From positions 1 to 64,000 of IMG/VR virus record IMGVR_UViG_3300028602_000002: DNA of 64,000 bases. One strand, written 5' to 3'. Numbering within the stretch: the stretch's first letter is position 1; each line of letters begins with the position of its first letter. Made by a program: the position numbers and the translations under genes. The notes below the pieces were generated by a model. The model did no database searches. It was not told the origin of the DNA and saw only the letters and a list, made by a program, of their open reading frames with translations. The DNA comes from a virus (Duplodnaviria; Caudoviricetes). This document shows positions 1,677 to 22,499 of the stretch, one piece after another.

Positions 1677-2081
1677 TTGAGAAAAATGTATATTTGTGAA
1701 AAATGTGGTAAAAATTTTTGTGGTGAAGATGAATGCACAAATTATGAAAAGGCGTGTGCTAAAGAATATACTTTTACGTGTTTCAAATGTGGGAAAATAA
1801 TTAAGTGGAATAGTGATGATATTGATAGCTCCATTATAAAAAATCAATGTCATATCATAGATTTAGGTCGTGGAGGTTATGGTAGCAAATTAGATGGTTG
1901 TGATATTTCTTTTGGATTGTGTGATGTGTGTTTAAATACGTTTGTAGAATCATTTAAGTTAAGAGAAAATATATATAATTCTGGCAGTAATGTAAATTAT
2001 AACTTTTATTTAGAAGAAGATCAATTAAACGAAGAGGAAAATAAAGATTGGGAAGATGATATGATCGATCATGATAATTAA
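1677..2081 (+). CDS. hypothetical Cys-rich zinc-finger protein
   Basis: several CxxC motifs, RBS GGAGG, TTG start. Confidence 0.7.
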   Translation: MRKMYICEKCGKNFCGEDECTNYEKACAKEYTFTCFKCGKIIKWNSDDIDSSIIKNQCHIIDLGRGGYGSKLDGCDISFGLCDVCLNTFVESFKLRENIYNSGSNVNYNFYLEEDQLNEEENKDWEDDMIDHDN

Positions 2082-7364: not shown

Positions 7365-8012
7365 ATGGGATTCATTTATAGAATTACTAATAAAATAAAC
7401 AATAAAAGTTATATTGGTAAAACTGAAACAAATATTGAAACAAGATTTAAAGAGCATATTAAAGAGAGTAAGAGAGAAAGAAGTAAAAATAGACCTTTGT
7501 ATGCAGCGATAAAAAAATATGGAATTGAAAATTTTAAAATCGAGTTAATTGAAGAGATAGTAGATAATCTTGAAGAAAGAGAAATGCATTATATACAAAA
7601 GTATGATACTTATGGCTCAACTGGATATAATGCAACTATAGGTGGTGATAGTAAAAGATATTTAAATTATGATGCTATTGTAAATTGCTATCATCAAGAA
7701 CAGAACATTACTAAGGTAGCCAACCTTATGAGGTGTGATAGAAAAACAGTTGGCAATATTTTAAGACAAAATAATGTTATTACTACATCTTCAGGAGGCA
7801 TGACTCGCAAAAAATTAGGAAAACCTGTTAAACAATACTCTTTAAAAGGAGAATATATAGCAACATATCCTTCAACTGGAGAAGCTGCTTTTATTTTATT
7901 TCAAAATAGAGATAAGCGAAAACATATTGCTGCTTGTGCTAGTAATATTCGTAAAACAGCATATGGTTATAAATGGAAGTATTGCATAACAAATGATGAT
8001 TTGGCCCCTTAG
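7365..8012 (+). CDS. GIY-YIG homing endonuclease with HTH and NUMOD1-type domains
   Basis: GFIYRITN...YIGKT, GYN.T.GG and TAYGYKWKY motifs. Confidence 0.9.
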   Translation: MGFIYRITNKINNKSYIGKTETNIETRFKEHIKESKRERSKNRPLYAAIKKYGIENFKIELIEEIVDNLEEREMHYIQKYDTYGSTGYNATIGGDSKRYLNYDAIVNCYHQEQNITKVANLMRCDRKTVGNILRQNNVITTSSGGMTRKKLGKPVKQYSLKGEYIATYPSTGEAAFILFQNRDKRKHIAACASNIRKTAYGYKWKYCITNDDLAP

Positions 8013-8208: not shown

Positions 8209-8622
8209 ATGTTACCTGTAAATCCAGCATTTAGATCACATGTAGCTGTTATAGATCAAATAATGCGAGACTATTTTAATGGCTTTGCTGAAGTTAAACA
8301 GATTGAGGTTATAGACTTAGAAGATGGCATTGAGAAAGTAATTTTCAATGATCCAGCAACTATTGTTATCTTCAAAGATGGCACTAAAATTGTTGTTAAG
8401 ACAACTGATGGTGATGAATTTCAGCCTGAAATAGGTTTTGCTATGGCTATGATGAAAGCTGTTTTTGGTAGTCGTGGTTCTTACAAGAAGTGGATTAAGC
8501 AATGGTTACCACAGGGAGAAGAAGATGATTATGATTTTGCAGTAAAACCATTTATTTCCCCTTCAATGGAAGACATTGGTAAAGAAACTCAATTAAGTTT
8601 ACCAAGAGAAAAGCGGGCATAG
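8209..8622 (+). CDS. conserved phage hypothetical protein
   Basis: IEKVIFNDPATIVIFKDGTK motif; stop lies inside tRNA-Gly. Confidence 0.8.
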   Translation: MLPVNPAFRSHVAVIDQIMRDYFNGFAEVKQIEVIDLEDGIEKVIFNDPATIVIFKDGTKIVVKTTDGDEFQPEIGFAMAMMKAVFGSRGSYKKWIKQWLPQGEEDDYDFAVKPFISPSMEDIGKETQLSLPREKRA

Positions 8623-9108: not shown

Positions 9109-9319
9109 TTGGTTATAATGCAGGTATCAGCTGCTATCCTCCAGTTTTGGTCTGTTCTGGAATATGAGCTAGTGATTCATACAGAAAAACAGACATCAAG
9201 ACATGAGGGCTTAAAACGGATTCCCCGCCGTGGTCTGGGCCAGCGTTGCTGTCACATCAGCCCGAGAAAAACTTACGCCGCAAGTTTAGGGGTTTAAAGC
9301 GGCAAACAACTGAGTCAAT
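9108..9319 (+). ncRNA. unidentified ~210-nt structured RNA with a possible pseudoknot
   Basis: nested stems GTCTGTT/AACAGAC, TATGAG/TTCATA and AAACTT/AAGTTT; loop GCCGC is complementary to downstream GCGGC. Confidence 0.55.
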
Positions 9320-9704
9320 GGGAGTTATTAATATAAAATGCGTCATTTGTGATAGTGAATTTGTTTTAAATGGTAAGCAAGGTGGTCAAAATAGAATTAT
9401 TTGTTATGGTTGTTTGCCCACTGGTTTGAATAGACAAGAAAGAAATAATCGAAGACGAGAACTTTTCTATTACAAAGCACAACAAATGAAGCTGTCACTG
9501 GGATGTAGTAAGTGTGGATATAATAAGTGTGCTGCGGCTTTAGAGTGGCATCACCCATATGATAACAAGGAACATAATTTATCAACTTTGTTAAATGTTA
9601 GTTTGTCGCTGTATATGCAAGAGGTTCAAAAATGTGAACTACTATGTGCTAACTGCCATAGGGAGCATCACTTTAAAACAACGGGGTGTGGCGCAATTTG
9701 GTAG
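9318..9704 (+). CDS. HNH homing endonuclease
   Basis: CSKCGY...LEWHH...C.LLCANCHREHH; start uncertain; stop lies inside tRNA-Pro. Confidence 0.85.
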   Translation: MGVINIKCVICDSEFVLNGKQGGQNRIICYGCLPTGLNRQERNNRRRELFYYKAQQMKLSLGCSKCGYNKCAAALEWHHPYDNKEHNLSTLLNVSLSLYMQEVQKCELLCANCHREHHFKTTGCGAIW

Positions 9705-9773: not shown

Positions 9774-10369
9774 CTTTAATAACTTCATAATTAATTGTAA
9801 ATTCAACTCAGTGAAGAAGGGTTTGTCAGCCCTGCTGAGATGCATCGGAAAGTGTGTGATTCTTGATTGGGATACTGATCAGGATAGCATTTTTGTGGCT
9901 GTGAAGTCATGGGAGAAGGAACAAAGTTCCAACACTAAGATGTAGTTCTGTGTAGCCTATTCGACTTAAATCACAAGACTCATGGCAGCGACAATAGACG
10001 CCCAGATGGGAAGAATCCAGATAGACTACAAGCATGGTAGCTAGAGTCAATGTCTGGAAACACCAATTAAGCTGTTGGCGATGAACCTGAGAAATCAGGG
10101 TATAACATGAGAACTTGGTACGAGTAGCCCAGCCGCCCACAATCAATTACATGATAGTTGGGGTAATGCCCAAGAAGAATATTAATTCTGAAGGCGGGTG
10201 AAAGTTGGAGGTAATCAATCCTCTGTAGTCTTGGGTCTTATGACCGGGGTAAGAAAGTTAGGGGTAGCTCCCCGAAGCTCAGGCTTATTTCACTACTGGA
10301 TGAATAAAGAGGGTAGGAGCATGGGAAGGCGAAGGTCTGAATTTACAATTAATTATGGAGTTATTAAGG
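9774..10369 (+). ncRNA. ROOL-like large structured RNA (~595 nt)
   Basis: 32-bp terminal helix (9774-9805 with 10338-10369), many internal hairpins, no credible ORF; size and tRNA-cluster context fit ROOL. Confidence 0.75.
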
Positions 10370-10402
10370 ATTAACTTTTCAGGTAATGTAGGAGTTGATT
10401 TA

Positions 10403-10561
10403 ATGGGAAAACCTAAAAAACATAAAAGGAAAGGTCCAAAATCAACAAGAGCAGGTTGCCTTTTGTGTAAACCACATAAAAGACAAGGAGTAATTACACC
10501 AACTGTTCAGGAGTTTAAAGCAATAGAAAGAGAAAAGGAAATGCGGGGGTATATACCGTAA
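10403..10561 (+). CDS. small basic protein (CLLCKPHK)
   Basis: RBS GGAG; stop lies inside tRNA-Tyr. Confidence 0.65.
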   Translation: MGKPKKHKRKGPKSTRAGCLLCKPHKRQGVITPTVQEFKAIEREKEMRGYIP

Positions 10562-10741: not shown

Positions 10742-11371
10742 ATGCCAACAGAAATTCGTTATCAAAGCTGGGATGGCGGTAGTGGTGTAAATGATAAACA
10801 GACTTTAATTGGATATTGTAAAGAAGATCCTAAAGAAGTGTTAAAGAAGGTTTATAAAGAGTATTTTATTAATCGCTATAAAGATTTATACCGCCCTGTT
10901 GACTATAATTTTCCTAATAATGTAGCTGGTTTAGTTATAAAAGAGATAACATTTAATGAGGTTCCTGGTTGTCAAATTACGGGAACATTGGAAGATCTAG
11001 ATTTAAGTATTGCTAAAGGTAAAAATTTAAATCGAGATAGAAAATCTTTTAGAGATGCACTTGAGAATGCTATTAAATGGCATACTTCCTATATAGATGG
11101 AACACTATCTGATCGCTATGTGGCTCAAGTTCAGGAAGTTAAAGAAGTAACTCTTAATGAAGATTTACAAAAGTATTTTGGTATTTATGACAATGGATAT
11201 GATGATGTTTATTATGTAGAATTGTTAGCCAAAACAAAACAGGAAGCAGTTGATATGTTTAAGCAATACTTAGAAATTGAATGTCAAGAAGATTTACTTA
11301 TTAATAAGGGAAACCTTACTGTAATTCATTCATCAGCTTTTGATTTTACTTTAAAACAAAAGGGAGAATGA
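10742..11371 (+). CDS. hypothetical protein
   Basis: RBS AAGGAG upstream of ATG 10742. Confidence 0.7.
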   Translation: MPTEIRYQSWDGGSGVNDKQTLIGYCKEDPKEVLKKVYKEYFINRYKDLYRPVDYNFPNNVAGLVIKEITFNEVPGCQITGTLEDLDLSIAKGKNLNRDRKSFRDALENAIKWHTSYIDGTLSDRYVAQVQEVKEVTLNEDLQKYFGIYDNGYDDVYYVELLAKTKQEAVDMFKQYLEIECQEDLLINKGNLTVIHSSAFDFTLKQKGE

Positions 11372-11547
11372 GTAGAATGTTTGAGAATGATATTACAAAA
11401 TGTGCAAATGAAGAATGTAAAATTAAAAATAGCTGTTTTAGATATACTTGTAAACCAGATTCTCACTGGCAATCTTATGCTATTTTCAACACTGAATTAA
11501 ATGATATATGTGATTTTTTTATAGATAACAAAAATGTGGTGGCTTAG
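11368..11547 (+). CDS. 59-aa Cys-rich protein (DITKC..C...C.RY)
   Basis: ATGA overlap with the upstream gene; stop lies inside tRNA-Ile. Confidence 0.65.
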   Translation: MSRMFENDITKCANEECKIKNSCFRYTCKPDSHWQSYAIFNTELNDICDFFIDNKNVVA

Positions 11548-19690: not shown

Positions 19691-20062
19691 ACGCGAAAGC
19701 CCATTATGGAATGTTGTACCAACGCACACAAGTTGTGTTAATCCATGTTAACAATGTTACGCTTTGCGTATTACTGCCGCTTAAACTCTCTCTCTTGCTT
19801 AGCTTACACAGCTCATTTCACAGCTCGCACTAGCGGCTCTATAACAACATAGCTTGCAACCGCACTATTAAGGGCGGCGATGGCTTGTGAATTTTTCCAG
19901 AGCTGGAATTTACTGGGAATGACGGAGCTATATGGGTAAAAATTCGCAGATTTTACCCATGTCCCAACGATATGGGTAAAAATTACGCATATTATAAACT
20001 GGTAAAATTGGAATTGTATGGGAATGACGGCAGAATTTCCAGTTACTTACAGAAAAAACTTC

Positions 20063-20091
20063 TTGACAGCTCCGCGGTTTCATGGTATAAT
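20063..20091 (+). promoter_or_regulatory. sigmaA-type promoter
   Basis: TTGACA-17-TATAAT. Confidence 0.9.
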
Positions 20092-20122
20092 AGATATATA
20101 AAGGATGAGAGGGGCGGTCATA

Positions 20123-20656
20123 GTGTATCCTTGGAATACTTCTCTTGCTACATACTTGAATTTAAGTCGAGAGAGAGATGTTAGTAATACTGATAGGCAA
20201 GAATATAACTGCGGCGGATTCGCTTTAGAAACTTTCTCTTGGTATATTCCTTATGATGGTGATGAGTATTTTGAGTTGGTTGACTATTATGATGAGGATT
20301 TATCATTAGTTACAGAACATTGTGTTAATCATATGTTGAATGAGGTGCCAGGGTTAAGACTAATTAACGCAGTCAGTGATGCACGAAAAGATGAAAAAGT
20401 TGTGTTATTTAGAGTTGGACCTTTTGATTTTCACTATGTGAAATATGAAAATGGTGAGTATCTTCATAAGGTTGGTTCCACTCCTATCCTTCCTATGTCA
20501 GAAGAAGAGGTTTATAGTAGAGCTTGGTGTTATGGCAAATACAATGGTGAGATAGTAATCTTTGCACTGAAACCTGTAGATGGTAGATCTTTCCTGAAAA
20601 AAGTTCTTGACAACCTCGAGAATCTATGGTATAATATATATAGAAAGGTGAGGTGA
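20123..20656 (+). CDS. hypothetical protein with putative papain-like Cys/His motif
   Basis: YNCGGFAL, DFHYVK and HKVG; GTG start after RBS. Confidence 0.65.
   Translation: MYPWNTSLATYLNLSRERDVSNTDRQEYNCGGFALETFSWYIPYDGDEYFELVDYYDEDLSLVTEHCVNHMLNEVPGLRLINAVSDARKDEKVVLFRVGPFDFHYVKYENGEYLHKVGSTPILPMSEEEVYSRAWCYGKYNGEIVIFALKPVDGRSFLKKVLDNLENLWYNIYRKVR
20607..20635 (+). promoter_or_regulatory. sigmaA-type promoter upstream of the mini-tmRNA cassette
   Basis: TTGACA-17-TATAAT followed by ATATATAG. Confidence 0.9.
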
Positions 20657-20663
20657 GCATGTT

Positions 20664-20828
20664 ATGAAAGCGGAAATTTTGAAGGTGATAGCGGCTGAAA
20701 TGAATGAGGCTGAGCGTAAAGCAGATGCGGCGGTTGATAAAGGTGAGATGGATGTTCATCGTTTTCATGCTGGAGCGTTTCATGCTCTTCAGAATTTATA
20801 TACCAGAGTGGTAAGAATACCGTTATAA
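20664..20828 (+). CDS. 54-aa hypothetical protein
   Basis: RBS GAGGTG; ends 2 nt before the mini-tmRNA. Confidence 0.65.
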   Translation: MKAEILKVIAAEMNEAERKADAAVDKGEMDVHRFHAGAFHALQNLYTRVVRIPL

Positions 20829-20830
20829 AT

Positions 20831-20911
20831 GGGGCTGACGGGTGTCGTCAGGTGGAAAATCTCCTACGGAGCCTCACCTGAACCTGGGTTCAACTCCCAG
20901 CAGCTCCACCA
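20831..20911 (+). ncRNA. minimal tmRNA-like RNA (tRNA-like domain only)
   Basis: GGGGCTG/CAGCTCC-A-CCA acceptor with G3:U70, stemless D-loop, CAGGTG/CACCTG helix, T-arm CTGGG-TTCAACT-CCCAG; no anticodon arm or tag ORF. Confidence 0.75.
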
Positions 20912-20918
20912 GATATTA

Positions 20919-21031
20919 GGGGAGAGGGAAAAAGGGATTATATTACCGCCAGCAAACCAGCATCCCTGAGCCGTACGGCGACAGCCAATGGGTAATTCCA
21001 GAGGAGCACTGTTAGGCTGGCTAATCTCCCC
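20919..21031 (+). ncRNA. unidentified 113-nt structured RNA
   Basis: GGGGAGA/TCTCCCC closing stem, GGGAT/ATCCC, GCCG/CGGC, CAGCC/GGCTG; possible loop pairing ATTACC/GGTAAT. Confidence 0.6.
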
Positions 21032-21048
21032 ATTTAAGGAGGATTAAT

Positions 21049-21324
21049 ATGGATTATAAAGATTGTCGTGATTGTTATTATTTACTTTCTATTGATTGTG
21101 TTCCTCATTGTGTTTTAGCAGATAAAGTTATCAGTGAAGTGGAGCGTTGTCCTGAAACTAAAGAGGAGCCTAATGAGATTAAGTTTGAGATTTATTTCAG
21201 TGACTTGAACTATGAAGCTCAGAAGCAAATGCTTGAAACGTTTGGTCAGGATTTTGTTAAAGAGGGGAATTATGATGCTTTTCCTCTGGTTGAATACATT
21301 CAATATAAAAATCCTGATTTGTAA
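21049..21324 (+). CDS. hypothetical protein
   Basis: RBS AGGAGG; Cys-rich N-terminus. Confidence 0.7.
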   Translation: MDYKDCRDCYYLLSIDCVPHCVLADKVISEVERCPETKEEPNEIKFEIYFSDLNYEAQKQMLETFGQDFVKEGNYDAFPLVEYIQYKNPDL

Positions 21325-21345
21325 TTAAATCCCAGAAAATACTTC

Positions 21346-21374
21346 TTGACAACCCCTGAAATTCGTGATATAAT
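21346..21374 (+). promoter_or_regulatory. sigmaA-type promoter
   Basis: TTGACA-17-TATAAT. Confidence 0.9.
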
Positions 21375-21408
21375 AAATATAGAAAAAAGAAAAGGAGGCT
21401 TTACCCCA

Positions 21409-21696
21409 ATGGCTAAGAAAGAAAAGAAAGTTGAACTGAGGGACGTGCTGAGGAAGGAAATCGCTGTGCTTCTGATGGAAGCCAAGGGTCTCACTGAGAT
21501 CGGTAGGACTAAGGAAGGTCTGGTTGTAACTGAAGGCGAACAAGACCTGGTGATCAGGGTTATCCAGAAGAAAGACAAAGTGGAAAAGAAAGACATCGTG
21601 GAAGTCATCACTCTGGATGAAGCCGAAGCCGAAGGTGAAGATGAAGGCGAAACTGAAGATGAAGCCGAGGGCGATTCCGAGGATGAAGCTCAGTAG
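21409..21696 (+). CDS. unknown small protein with acidic tail (paralogue 1 of 3)
   Basis: GRTKEGL..VIRVIQKK motif; own promoter and terminator. Confidence 0.85.
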   Translation: MAKKEKKVELRDVLRKEIAVLLMEAKGLTEIGRTKEGLVVTEGEQDLVIRVIQKKDKVEKKDIVEVITLDEAEAEGEDEGETEDEAEGDSEDEAQ

Positions 21697-21702
21697 AGTG
21701 AG

Positions 21703-21741
21703 AAAGAGGGCGGATGAAGACGTGCCGCCTTCTTTTTCTTT
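21703..21741 (+). terminator. intrinsic terminator
   Basis: AGAGGGCGG/CCGCCTTCT hairpin plus T tract. Confidence 0.75.
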
Positions 21742-21890
21742 CCTGTTGTTTCCATAATTTTACAGCTCTTCCACAGCTCGCCATATATTCCAAAATATGG
21801 AAGCGGGCTGTTCGTCATTCCCTATTCTTTTTTCTTTTGGAATTGTGTGGAAATGACGGACGCCTGGAAAATAGTGGTAAAAAATACTTC

Positions 21891-21919
21891 TTGACAAAAC
21901 CACGGATTTTTGATATAAT
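21891..21919 (+). promoter_or_regulatory. sigmaA-type promoter
   Basis: TTGACA-17-TATAAT. Confidence 0.9.
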
Positions 21920-21948
21920 ATATATAATGAAAGAAAGGGGAGGATAAC

Positions 21949-22218
21949 ATGGCTGGTGGCTTCTGGGATAGTGAAAAGGTATTGAGGGACGTTCCCAAAG
22001 TTGGAACCAAGTCGACATTCTACCGTTTTAAGGAAGTGAAGAAAGGTAACAAGAAGTATATTGACGTGCGGGAACACTTCATTAAGGCGGATGGAACTGA
22101 GCAATATACTTCCAAAGGAACTGCCATTCCTGTTGATGGTTTTGAAGACTTCCTGATTGCAGTCAGAGATATTGGTGAATTCCTGAAAAGTGGCGAGATG
22201 CCTAAGGATTTGGGGTAG
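21949..22218 (+). CDS. PC4/YdbC-like single-stranded nucleic-acid-binding protein
   Basis: KYIDVREHF....G....TSKGTAIP motif. Confidence 0.8.
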   Translation: MAGGFWDSEKVLRDVPKVGTKSTFYRFKEVKKGNKKYIDVREHFIKADGTEQYTSKGTAIPVDGFEDFLIAVRDIGEFLKSGEMPKDLG

Positions 22219-22372: not shown

Positions 22373-22499
22373 TGGCGGACGCCAGGGGTAAGGCGTGCCT
22401 GAGTGGGAGTGGTTACCGGCCGTAGACCACAGGTAGGGCGAGCAGAGTGTTAAAACCCTAAAGGATAGCTGTTCAAGTAGGTTCGAAACCTACCCGCCA
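22373..22499 (+). ncRNA. tRNA-like RNA with an expanded central domain
   Basis: TGGCGG/CCGCCA stem, D-like hairpin ACGCC/GGCGT, T-arm GTAGG-TTCGAAA-CCTAC, two extra stems, no anticodon loop. Confidence 0.65.

What the first reader, a model, noticed from the sequence alone, without database searches (positions are those of the whole stretch)
20831..20911. 81-nt mini-tmRNA: alanine-acceptor tRNA-like domain with no message domain
Seen: the 5' end GGGGCTG and 3' end GGGTTCAACTCCCAGCAGCTCCACCA are tmRNA-type termini. It has a G3:U70 pair, A73 and CCA, a stemless D-loop (ACGGGTGTCG) and a helix-2-like stem CAGGTG/CACCTG. Only about 20 nt with a tiny hairpin sit where tmRNA has pseudoknots and the tag ORF. 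It lies behind a consensus promoter (20607). Known: G3:U70 specifies AlaRS charging, and SmpB binds the tmRNA TLD. Inference: a phage SmpB decoy, or a tag-less ribosome-rescue RNA that blocks ssrA tagging and degradation of phage proteins early in infection.
Basis: partly seen in the sequence, partly recalled or inferred. Interest (0 to 1): 0.9.

Follow-up and report, generated by a model that had tools for sequence, protein, structure and literature searches.

The report
Phage tag-less mini-tmRNA gene
This 81-base phage gene encodes only the alanine-accepting, tRNA-like end of the bacterial ribosome-rescue RNA (tmRNA); it is a real, conserved RNA, but of a kind already known from mycobacteriophage DS6A, and it probably interferes with the host's rescue-and-tag system.

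Summary
Window 20831-20911 (+) is an 81-nt RNA gene with a 7-bp acceptor stem (G3:U70, A73, encoded CCA), an unpaired D-loop analogue, a 7-bp helix 2 capped by an A-rich loop with a 4-bp hairpin, and a T arm. It has no tag frame and no pseudoknots.

Rfam tmRNA scores it 55 bits (cut-off 47). ARAGORN calls neither a tRNA nor a tmRNA. A covariance model built only from other phages' copies, DS6A included, scores it 71.6 bits. All three helices covary across 27 sequences. A soda-lake relative differs at 13 positions; 9 are paired and all keep pairing.

It is therefore a new member of a known kind, the TLD-only (CDS-less) tmRNA of mycobacteriophage DS6A, which two papers cite as inhibiting E. coli tmRNA. 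This scan has already found the kind repeatedly on other DNA.

Features particular to this case:
- a perfect sigma-A promoter upstream;
- a canonical full-length tmRNA (tag AEPKLKAA) in the same 115-kb phage;
- no phage SmpB;
- five ORFs whose stop codons lie inside downstream tRNA genes.

The mechanism was not tested here. Competition with host tmRNA for SmpB and stalled ribosomes is the best-supported reading; tag-less rescue is the main rival.

The parts
20607..20635 (+). Consensus sigma-70/sigma-A promoter with extended -10 (TTGACA, 17 nt, TG-n-TATAAT)
   Evidence: 12 of 12 match with TG. The homologous promoter sits about 24 nt upstream of the mini in the relative L255.
20664..20828 (+). 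54-aa ORF between promoter and mini; its stop codon ends 2 nt before the RNA
   Evidence: ORF list. No Pfam hit and only a weak PHROG hit, E 0.007. The ORF is absent from the relative L255, where the promoter leads straight into the mini.
20831..20911 (+). TLD-only (tag-less) tmRNA gene, 81 nt
   Evidence: RF00023 55 bits; R2 71.6 bits; no ARAGORN call; family covariation.
20831..20837 (+). Acceptor stem, 5' strand (GGGGCUG); pairs with 20901-20907 (CAGCUCC), including G3:U70
   Evidence: Sequence. Pair 6:67 covaries in the family as UA, CG, AU, GC and UG.
20838..20848 (+). D-loop analogue without a stem (ACGGGUGUCGU), containing the GG dinucleotide
   Evidence: Unpaired in the centroid fold. 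Aligns with the family motif GGuuUcGAc.
20849..20880 (+). Helix 2 (20849-20855 paired with 20874-20880) capped by an A-rich loop with inner hairpin CUCC/GGAG (20861-20864 paired with 20868-20871)
   Evidence: All six modelled helix-2 pairs covary in the family. Against L255 there are two double compensatory changes.
20884..20900 (+). T arm: 5-bp stem CUGGG/CCCAG with 7-nt loop UUCAACU
   Evidence: Sequence. The three stem pairs left free by the search pattern covary.
20908..20911 (+). Discriminator A73 and encoded CCA end
   Evidence: Sequence.
20919..21031 (+). Conserved structured RNA of unknown class in the same transcription unit, downstream of the mini; any link to the mini is unproven
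   Evidence: Fold z-score -2.1. A homologue lies in L255 after two tRNAs, with a 38-nt identical core and compensatory changes in the closing stem. No Rfam family matches.

Best explanation
This is a working gene for a TLD-only (CDS-less) tmRNA of the mycobacteriophage DS6A type.

Shown here: homology to the DS6A family, a conserved three-helix structure, and a consensus promoter upstream.

Inferred steps:
1. Host RNA polymerase transcribes it from the consensus sigma-A promoter at 20607, together with a 54-aa ORF.
2. RNase P cuts the 5' end, as for a tRNA, and trimming exposes the encoded CCA.
3. Host AlaRS charges it with alanine through G3:U70 and A73.
4. Host SmpB binds it, since the phage encodes no SmpB.
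5. Because it has no resume codon, tag frame or stop codon, it cannot complete trans-translation. [quoted passage not shown] This phage should produce such messages itself. At least five of its ORFs take their stop codon from inside the next tRNA gene, so tRNA processing would remove the stop.

My confidence in the identity is about 0.95. The figure below is for the competitive-inhibitor mechanism.
For: Identity and family:
- RF00023 scores 55 bits, above the cut-off of 47, matched end to end.
- Model R2, built from 26 other phage sequences including DS6A and without this element, scores it 71.6 bits. Window tRNAs score 31 bits or less.
- DS6A's published TLD-only element (JN698994 28478-28560) has the same architecture, including an A-rich loop and a small hairpin.

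Selection on structure:
- 93.4% of pair cells form standard pairs, against 40-53% when partners are slid.
- The covariation score is 0.54, against 0.06-0.12 for the slid controls.
- RNAalifold independently predicts the same three helices.
- The soda-lake relative L255 differs at 13 of 81 positions. Nine are at paired positions and all preserve pairing.

Expression signals:
- There is a 12/12 extended -10 promoter here.
- In L255 the same promoter type directly precedes mini, tRNA-Glu and tRNA-Lys, which argues for tRNA-type processing.

Mechanism, from the literature: a DS6A-like TLD-only RNA, chargeable or not, strongly inhibits E. coli tmRNA, perhaps by titrating SmpB. This is Mao et al. 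2009 as cited in PMC4131195 and PMC11915505.

The phage depends on host factors: it has no SmpB, Pth, RF-1/ArfB domain or CCA-adding enzyme.

Supply of stop-less messages: five ORFs end inside the following tRNA gene.
Against: - Nothing here shows expression, alanylation or SmpB binding.
- The same phage carries a canonical full-length tmRNA, also behind a 12/12 sigma-A promoter. An SmpB-titrating RNA should inhibit that tmRNA as well.
- The D-loop and helix-2 junction departs from the family consensus: UCGUC instead of UCGAC, and GAAC instead of GGAC. SmpB affinity could therefore differ.
- The inhibition experiment was done with a different sequence in E. coli, and I could read it only through citing papers.
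- The host is unknown.
Confidence: 0.5

Rival explanations
1. Tag-less ribosome rescue. The Ala-charged mini, with host SmpB and EF-Tu, enters stalled ribosomes and accepts the nascent chain. The peptidyl-RNA is then released and hydrolysed by host factors. Ribosomes are freed and the protein gains one alanine but no degradation tag. In this reading the RNA acts productively rather than as an inhibitor.
For: All alanine identity elements and a canonical T loop are kept and conserved, although a pure SmpB sponge would not need them. The DS6A-like inhibitor worked whether or not it was chargeable, so conserved chargeability hints at a further role. CDS-less tmRNAs persist in mitochondria alongside imported SmpB and are thought to help with incomplete mRNAs (PMC11915505). 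The phage's ORF-into-tRNA layout should generate stop-less messages.
Against: No release mechanism is encoded: the phage has no Pth and no RF-1/ArfB domain. The phage already has a full-length tmRNA able to do complete rescue. No experiment I could read shows turnover by a TLD-only RNA.
Confidence: 0.25
2. A tRNA-like decoy or ligand for a partner other than SmpB, for example a host tRNA- or tmRNA-directed defence nuclease, RNase R, or a phage RNA-binding protein. On this reading tmRNA likeness reflects ancestry, not current function.
For: The phage is unusually rich in tRNA-like RNAs. Fragmented t(m)RNAs bound by phage AcrIIIA1 bind RNase R (PMC11662646). The junction motifs deviate from the consensus.
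Against: Across phages from very different backgrounds, the features kept are the alanine identity set, the T loop and helix 2. No candidate partner gene is conserved next to the minis: neighbours are orphans, and 32 of 41 loci have no tRNA within 3 kb.
Confidence: 0.12
3. The mini and the downstream structured RNA (20919-21031) form a split tmRNA. The mini supplies the tRNA-like part, and the second RNA supplies a short message (GCA AAC CAG CAU CCC UGA, reading ANQHP then stop).
For: Both RNAs lie in one promoter unit here and in L255. The short frame, starting with the usual Ala-Asn, is kept in L255 as ANQNP then stop, with one synonymous and one replacement change.
Against: Predicted duplexes between the two RNAs are no better than shuffles: 57 of 200 and 75 of 200 shuffles do as well. 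Part of the frame is buried in a conserved stem. In L255 two tRNAs separate the two RNAs. Only two sequences exist. The permuted-tmRNA model scores 15 bits against a cut-off of 47.
Confidence: 0.04
4. A non-functional remnant: either an attP fragment of a host tmRNA gene or a decaying internal-deletion copy of the phage's own tmRNA.
For: Many temperate phages carry 3' tmRNA fragments as attP sites; the BLAST hits to Cronobacter and Escherichia phage attP sites cover only the 3' 26-37 nt. A full-length tmRNA is present in the same genome.
Against: Both halves are present and pair. No tyrosine integrase is found in a complete genome with direct terminal repeats. The stems differ from those of the phage's full-length tmRNA at 6:67 and at three T-stem pairs. 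The differences from L255 are pair-preserving, and a dedicated promoter is conserved.
Confidence: 0.03

Closest known systems
TLD-only ('standard, no CDS') tmRNA of Mycobacterium phage DS6A (JN698994 28478-28560; tmRNA Website tmID 11587; Mao et al. 2009; Hudson, Lau and Williams 2014, PMC4131195; PMC11915505)
   Same: Both are phage-borne and about 80 nt long. Both have the acceptor stem with G3:U70, a stemless D-loop analogue, helix 2 closed by an A-rich loop with a small hairpin, and a T arm, and both lack a tag frame. Both are found by one covariance model: DS6A scores 63 bits with R1, and this element scores 71.6 bits with R2, whose seed includes DS6A.
   Different: DS6A is a temperate 60-kb actinophage with 69% GC in the element, a non-CCA 3' end (CUA), and no full-length tmRNA. 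This element sits in an AT-rich 115-kb phage with terminal repeats, encodes CCA, follows a consensus sigma-A promoter, and coexists with a full-length phage tmRNA.
Standard one-piece tmRNA (SsrA, Rfam RF00023), including phage-borne full-length copies (about 2.3% of phage genomes, PMC9004378)
   Same: The tRNA-like domain is the same: alanine identity elements, T loop, D-loop analogue and the start of helix 2. It exceeds the Rfam cut-off.
   Different: It lacks pseudoknots, a resume codon, a tag ORF and a stop codon, about 270 nt in all, so it cannot carry out the messenger half of trans-translation.
CDS-less organellar tmRNAs (jakobid and oomycete mitochondria; Mallomonadaceae plastids of about 65 nt; PMC11915505)
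   Same: Natural tmRNAs reduced to the tRNA-like domain, retained together with SmpB.
   Different: Those are resident organelle genes that replace the full-length form. This one is viral and is added on top of host and phage full-length tmRNAs.
tRNA-Ala
   Same: G3:U70, A73, CCA and the T arm.
   Different: It has no D stem and no anticodon arm. ARAGORN makes no call, and position 8 is A rather than U.

Membership tests
tmRNA (SsrA, RF00023) | tRNA-like domain: 7-bp acceptor stem with G3:U70, discriminator A, CCA, and a T arm with a UUCRANY loop | tested here: met
   Read directly from the sequence and from the fold. Acceptor pair 6:67 and the T-stem pairs covary in the family.
tmRNA (SsrA, RF00023) | Score at or above the curated Rfam gathering threshold | tested here: met
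   55 bits against 47 in the whole-window and whole-genome scans. Caveat: short slices gave no hit or only an 18-bit truncated hit.
tmRNA (SsrA, RF00023) | mRNA-like domain: resume codon, tag reading frame with a stop codon, and pseudoknots | tested here: not met
   Only 18 nt lie between the helix-2 strands. ARAGORN finds no tag here, but does find AEPKLKAA in the phage's other tmRNA.
tmRNA (SsrA, RF00023) | Charged by AlaRS, bound by SmpB, and enters stalled ribosomes | not testable with these tools
   Needs biochemistry. The phage itself has no SmpB.
TLD-only (CDS-less) phage tmRNA, DS6A type | Complete tRNA-like domain closed by a helix-2 hairpin, 60-95 nt, with no tag frame | tested here: met
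   The architecture is the same in 40-odd distinct phage sequences.
TLD-only (CDS-less) phage tmRNA, DS6A type | Detectable homology to the DS6A element and its relatives with a model that excludes the query | tested here: met
   R2 (26 sequences including DS6A and pSt2308, excluding this element and L255) gives 71.6 bits, E 1e-14, end to end.
TLD-only (CDS-less) phage tmRNA, DS6A type | Structure maintained by selection (compensatory changes) | tested here: met
   10 of 18 pairs show double changes; 93.4% of cells are paired against 40-53% when slid. RNAalifold gives the same structure. All differences from L255 at paired positions preserve pairing.
TLD-only (CDS-less) phage tmRNA, DS6A type | Inhibits endogenous tmRNA function | not testable with these tools
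   Reported for a DS6A-like RNA in E. coli (Mao et al. 2009). The primary paper is not held.
tRNA (RF00005) | Cloverleaf with D stem and an anticodon arm bearing a 7-nt loop | tested here: not met
   No ARAGORN call. Rfam assigns the locus to tmRNA, not tRNA, within clan CL00001. The central helix carries an 18-nt structured cap.
Two-piece (permuted) tmRNA (RF04321) | Acceptor piece and coding piece in permuted order, scoring over the cut-off | tested here: not met
   15.3 bits against 47, covering the T arm and acceptor only. No duplex with the downstream RNA beyond shuffles.
attP fragment of a tmRNA gene | Only the 3' part of tmRNA, in a phage with an integrase | tested here: not met
   The 5' strand and D-loop are present. 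PF00589 is absent from the complete genome.

The most novel reading that the evidence does not exclude
The mini and the conserved structured RNA that follows it in the same promoter unit (20919-21031) are the two halves of a new kind of split tmRNA. One is a self-contained alanine-accepting head. The other is a separate message piece that encodes a very short non-degron tag (ANQHP, or ANQNP in the relative). In that case the phage would replace host tagging rather than merely block it. A weaker form of the idea: the mini silences host tmRNA while the phage's own full-length tmRNA (tag AEPKLKAA) takes over rescue of the stop-less messages created by the phage's ORF-into-tRNA gene layout.
Probability: 0.05. 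Interest if true: 0.85.

Novelty: new member of a known kind. Interest (0 to 1): 0.4.

Why it matters
TLD-only tmRNAs are the smallest natural molecules expected to engage AlaRS, SmpB and stalled ribosomes. In the literature they rest on a single phage example, DS6A, plus a few organelles.

This element adds a well-supported member from an AT-rich soda-lake phage that is not an actinophage. The searches done for it show the following:
- The form recurs in dozens of uncultured phage contigs.
- It lies unannotated in isolated phages: Streptomyces phage pSt2308 and the Armstrong group of Microbacterium phages.

Its setting raises a concrete, testable question about why phages tune trans-translation. 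The same genome carries a full-length phage tmRNA with a short atypical tag, encodes no SmpB, and has several ORFs whose stop codons would be removed by tRNA processing.

The kind itself is not new, and no function was shown here.

Tried and rejected
**Readings rejected**
- Ordinary tRNA: ARAGORN makes no call and there is no anticodon arm.
- Recent internal deletion of the phage's own tmRNA: the stems differ at 6:67 and at three T-stem pairs, and the D-loops differ.
- attP fragment: the phage has no integrase and both halves of the domain are present.
- Coding ORF 20829-20969 (46 aa) over the element: its ATG is not conserved in L255.
- Base-paired partnership between the mini and the downstream RNA: predicted duplex energy is no better than shuffles.

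**Searches for close relatives that failed**
- Megablast of 20000-22000 against GenBank phages found nothing.
- The 26-mer and 17-mer scans of IMG/VR gave nothing or only chance coding hits.
- The neighbouring 183-aa protein gave only a promoter-like chance match.
- The core of the downstream RNA was not found in IMG/VR.
- Two JGI metagenome scans found nothing.
- The only close relative found is L255.

**Other dead ends and false leads**
- The genome contigs pattern scan was swamped by about 105 false positives. These are the 3' parts of ordinary actinobacterial tmRNAs that happen to contain an internal GGGGCNGA.
- Host identification failed. L255 is binned in a Gammaproteobacteria MAG whose own tmRNA (tag ANDDNYALAA) is unrelated. 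A 2.9-kb contig is weak evidence of a host.
- The primary Mao et al. 2009 paper is not held.
- The neighbouring proteins have no informative family.
- The phage encodes no Pth, RF-1/ArfB domain or CCA-adding enzyme.

Full report
**What is there.** Window 20831-20911 (+) reads GGGGCUG, ACGGGUGUCGU, CAGGUGG, an 18-nt cap, CUCACCUG, AAC, CUGGG-UUCAACU-CCCAG, CAGCUCC, ACCA.
- This gives a 7-bp acceptor stem with G3:U70, discriminator A73 and an encoded CCA.
- The D-loop analogue is unpaired and keeps the GG dinucleotide.
- Helix 2 has 7 bp and is closed by an A-rich loop holding the 4-bp hairpin CUCC-UAC-GGAG.
- The T arm is canonical.
- The centroid fold reproduces this layout.
- ARAGORN, which finds 13 tRNAs in the window and a full tmRNA elsewhere in the genome, calls nothing here.
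- Rfam's tmRNA model matches end to end at 55 bits against a cut-off of 47, in both the whole-window and whole-genome scans.
- That score depends on the search mode. Short slices gave no hit over the cut-off, or an 18-bit truncated hit.
- The element has 60.5% GC in a window of 32.8% GC.
- No tag frame fits in the 18 nt between the helix-2 strands.

**Setting.** The window is the first 64 kb of a complete 115,422-bp virus record with direct terminal repeats.
- Earlier notes of this scan place the phage in a soda lake.
- The promoter is followed by a 54-aa orphan ORF (20664-20828) whose stop codon ends 2 nt before the RNA.
- Seven nucleotides after the CCA, a structured RNA of unknown class begins (20919-21031).
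- The phage has no tyrosine integrase, SmpB, peptidyl-tRNA hydrolase, RF-1/ArfB domain or CCA-adding enzyme.
- It does carry a canonical full-length tmRNA at genome 103744-104092 (-). That gene scores 119.5 bits, has the tag AEPKLKAA, and also lies downstream of a 12/12 promoter.
- The full-length copy's tRNA-like domain differs from the mini. Its acceptor is GGGGCCG/CGGCUCC, its T stem is AGGGG/CCCCU, and its D-loop is GGUUUCGAC.
- The mini is therefore not a recent internal deletion of it.

**Relatives.** Exact-pattern scans of IMG/VR for GGGGCNG, a 30-60 nt gap, GGTTCNANTCC and CNGCTCCACCA returned mostly tRNA-Ala genes. They also returned about 40 distinct sequences of 62-92 nt that are not tRNAs.
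- Nearly all of these fold into the same three-helix shape, though in a few the minimum-energy fold differs.
- Many share the cap motif UAAAGCC, a few variable bases, then GG(C), which forms a small covarying hairpin.
- In a 27-sequence alignment, 93.4% of pair cells are standard pairs, against 40-53% when partners are slid.
- The covariation score is 0.54, against 0.06-0.12 for the slid controls.
- All six modelled helix-2 pairs, the three T-stem pairs left free by the pattern, and acceptor pair 6:67 show double changes.
- RNAalifold predicts the identical structure on its own.
- Model R1, built from this alignment, finds three elements that were not in it:
  - the published TLD-only element of mycobacteriophage DS6A (JN698994 28478-28560, 63 bits);
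  - an unannotated element in the tRNA array of Streptomyces phage pSt2308 (PV588686 33356-33436, 64 bits);
  - a weaker one beside the tRNAs of Microbacterium phage Armstrong (41.6 bits).
- Model R2 was built from 26 sequences including DS6A and pSt2308, and excluding this element and its close relative. It scores the window's element at 71.6 bits, E 1e-14, end to end. The window's tRNAs reach 31 bits at most.
- Membership in the DS6A-type family is therefore established by an independent test.

**A close relative.** One genome-contig hit, L255, is a 2.9-kb contig from Cock Soda Lake sediment, binned in a Gammaproteobacteria MAG. It is syntenic with window 19.9-22.1 kb.
- Its gene order is: a 12/12 extended -10 promoter, a 24-nt leader, the mini, tRNA-Glu, tRNA-Lys, the homologue of the downstream structured RNA, then the next promoter.
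- The two minis differ at 13 of 81 positions. Nine of these are at paired positions, and all nine preserve pairing.
- The changes include C19:G50 to U:A and A20:U49 to G:C, and a coupled change at the helix-2 junction (U18-A51 here, A18.G51 in L255).
- Together these show a promoter-driven RNA gene under selection for structure, embedded among tRNAs in the relative. That argues for tRNA-type maturation.
- I found no closer relatives in IMG/VR or the JGI metagenomes.

**Comparison with what is known.**
- Hudson, Lau and Williams (2014, PMC4131195) list 'Mycobacterium phage DS6A (TLD only)'. They state that a similar molecule, chargeable or not, strongly inhibits tmRNA, perhaps by titrating SmpB, citing Mao et al. 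2009.
- The 2025 tmRNA database paper (PMC11915505) repeats this. It also describes CDS-less organellar tmRNAs that persist together with SmpB.
- Full-length tmRNAs occur in about 2.3% of phage genomes (PMC9004378).
- The kind is therefore already described, and this is a new member.
- This scan has reached the same conclusion for several other phages. One is a giant phage that carries a normal tmRNA plus a 140-nt miniature.

**What is particular here.**
1. In a sample of 20 other records that hold a mini, five of them complete genomes, none has a full-length tmRNA. This phage has both, apparently in the same promoter class.
2. Five ORFs in the tRNA array end inside the next tRNA gene: 7365-8012, 8209-8622, 9246-9704, 10355-10561 and 11368-11547. 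RNase P cleavage would strip their stop codons. The phage should therefore make substrates for trans-translation. This is an inference, in line with the Carsonella smpB/ssrA overlap discussed in PMC4131195.
3. Nine of 41 family loci have same-strand tRNA genes within 500 nt. The rest stand alone.

**Mechanism.** Homology, conserved structure and promoters are shown. Everything downstream of those is inferred.
- Best-supported reading (0.5): after tRNA-like processing and probable alanylation, the RNA binds host SmpB and competes with full-length tmRNA. This reduces host degradation tagging.
- Main rival (0.25): productive tag-less rescue. Its support is the strict conservation of chargeability features, which a pure sponge would not need. 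Against it, the phage encodes no release factor and already has a full tmRNA.
- The two readings overlap, since both require SmpB and compete with host tmRNA.
- Open problem for either reading: an SmpB competitor should also hinder the phage's own tmRNA.
- Lesser rivals: a decoy for another partner (0.12), a split tmRNA with the downstream RNA as message piece (0.04), and a relic or attP fragment (0.03).
- For the split-tmRNA idea, the short frame ANQHP-stop is kept as ANQNP-stop in L255. However, there is no inter-RNA pairing beyond shuffles.

**Verdict.** The RNA gene is real and well supported. It is correctly recognised as a tmRNA head without a message, but it is not new in kind. Interest is moderate. 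It rests on the coexistence with a full-length phage tmRNA, on the gene layout that generates stop-less messages, and on the fact that the family is far more widespread than the single published phage example.

Noticed in passing
own genome G000:C1:103744-104092 (-), outside the window; locus L001:1501-1849 (-): A canonical full-length phage tmRNA: RF00023 119.5 bits, with ARAGORN tag AEPKLKAA, which is short and not the usual ...ALAA. It follows a 12/12 sigma-A promoter and an ORF, near tRNA-Met and the Ro60/Y-RNA region.
   Followed up: partly
window 20919-21031 (+); L255 about 1845-1975 (-): A conserved structured RNA of unknown class downstream of the mini. A 38-nt core is identical in the soda-lake relative, the closing stems change compensatorily, and no Rfam family matches. 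A short frame, ANQHP-stop here and ANQNP-stop in the relative, is kept. There is no predicted pairing with the mini beyond shuffles.
   Followed up: partly
window 7365-8012, 8209-8622, 9246-9704, 10355-10561, 11368-11547 (+): Five ORFs in the tRNA array end inside the following tRNA gene (Glu, Gly, Pro, Tyr, Ile). Three more end 0-2 nt (no more than 2) before a tRNA. tRNA 5' processing would leave these messages without a stop codon, or with the stop at the very end.
   Followed up: partly
window 9783-10357 (+): A full-length ROOL RNA (RF03087, 367 bits) sits inside the phage tRNA array.
   Followed up: no
PV588686.1 33356-33436 (L167:2450-2530 +); NC_048090.1 39284-39376 (L166:2438-2530 +): Unannotated TLD-only tmRNA genes in isolated phages. 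Streptomyces phage pSt2308 has one inside its tRNA array (64 bits with R1; RF00023 61 bits). Microbacterium phage Armstrong and its relatives have a weaker, longer one just before tRNA-Asn (41.6 bits).
   Followed up: partly
loci L168-L287 (genome contigs): The pattern GGGGCNGA, a gap, then GGTTCNANTCC...GCTCCA mostly hits the last 85-92 nt of ordinary actinobacterial tmRNAs, which contain an internal GGGGCCGAGAAAAGCG. This is a trap for pattern-based censuses of mini-tmRNAs. Possible real minis in MAGs are L191 (Chloroflexota), L233 (Dehalococcoidia), L241 (Actinomycetota) and L264 (Doudnabacteria), at 42-48 bits with R2.
   Followed up: partly
window 22432-22499 (+): A weak hit of the mini-tmRNA model (20.6 bits) to a T-arm and acceptor-like element. 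It lies within the tRNA-like RNA that another note places at 22373-22499.
   Followed up: no
L255 (PWJA01000183.1, whole 2856 bp): This contig, binned in a Gammaproteobacteria MAG from Cock Soda Lake sediment, is a fragment of a phage related to this one. It has four 12/12 promoters and the same cassette layout. The MAG's own tmRNA (tag ANDDNYALAA) is unrelated, so the binning says little about the host.
   Followed up: partly
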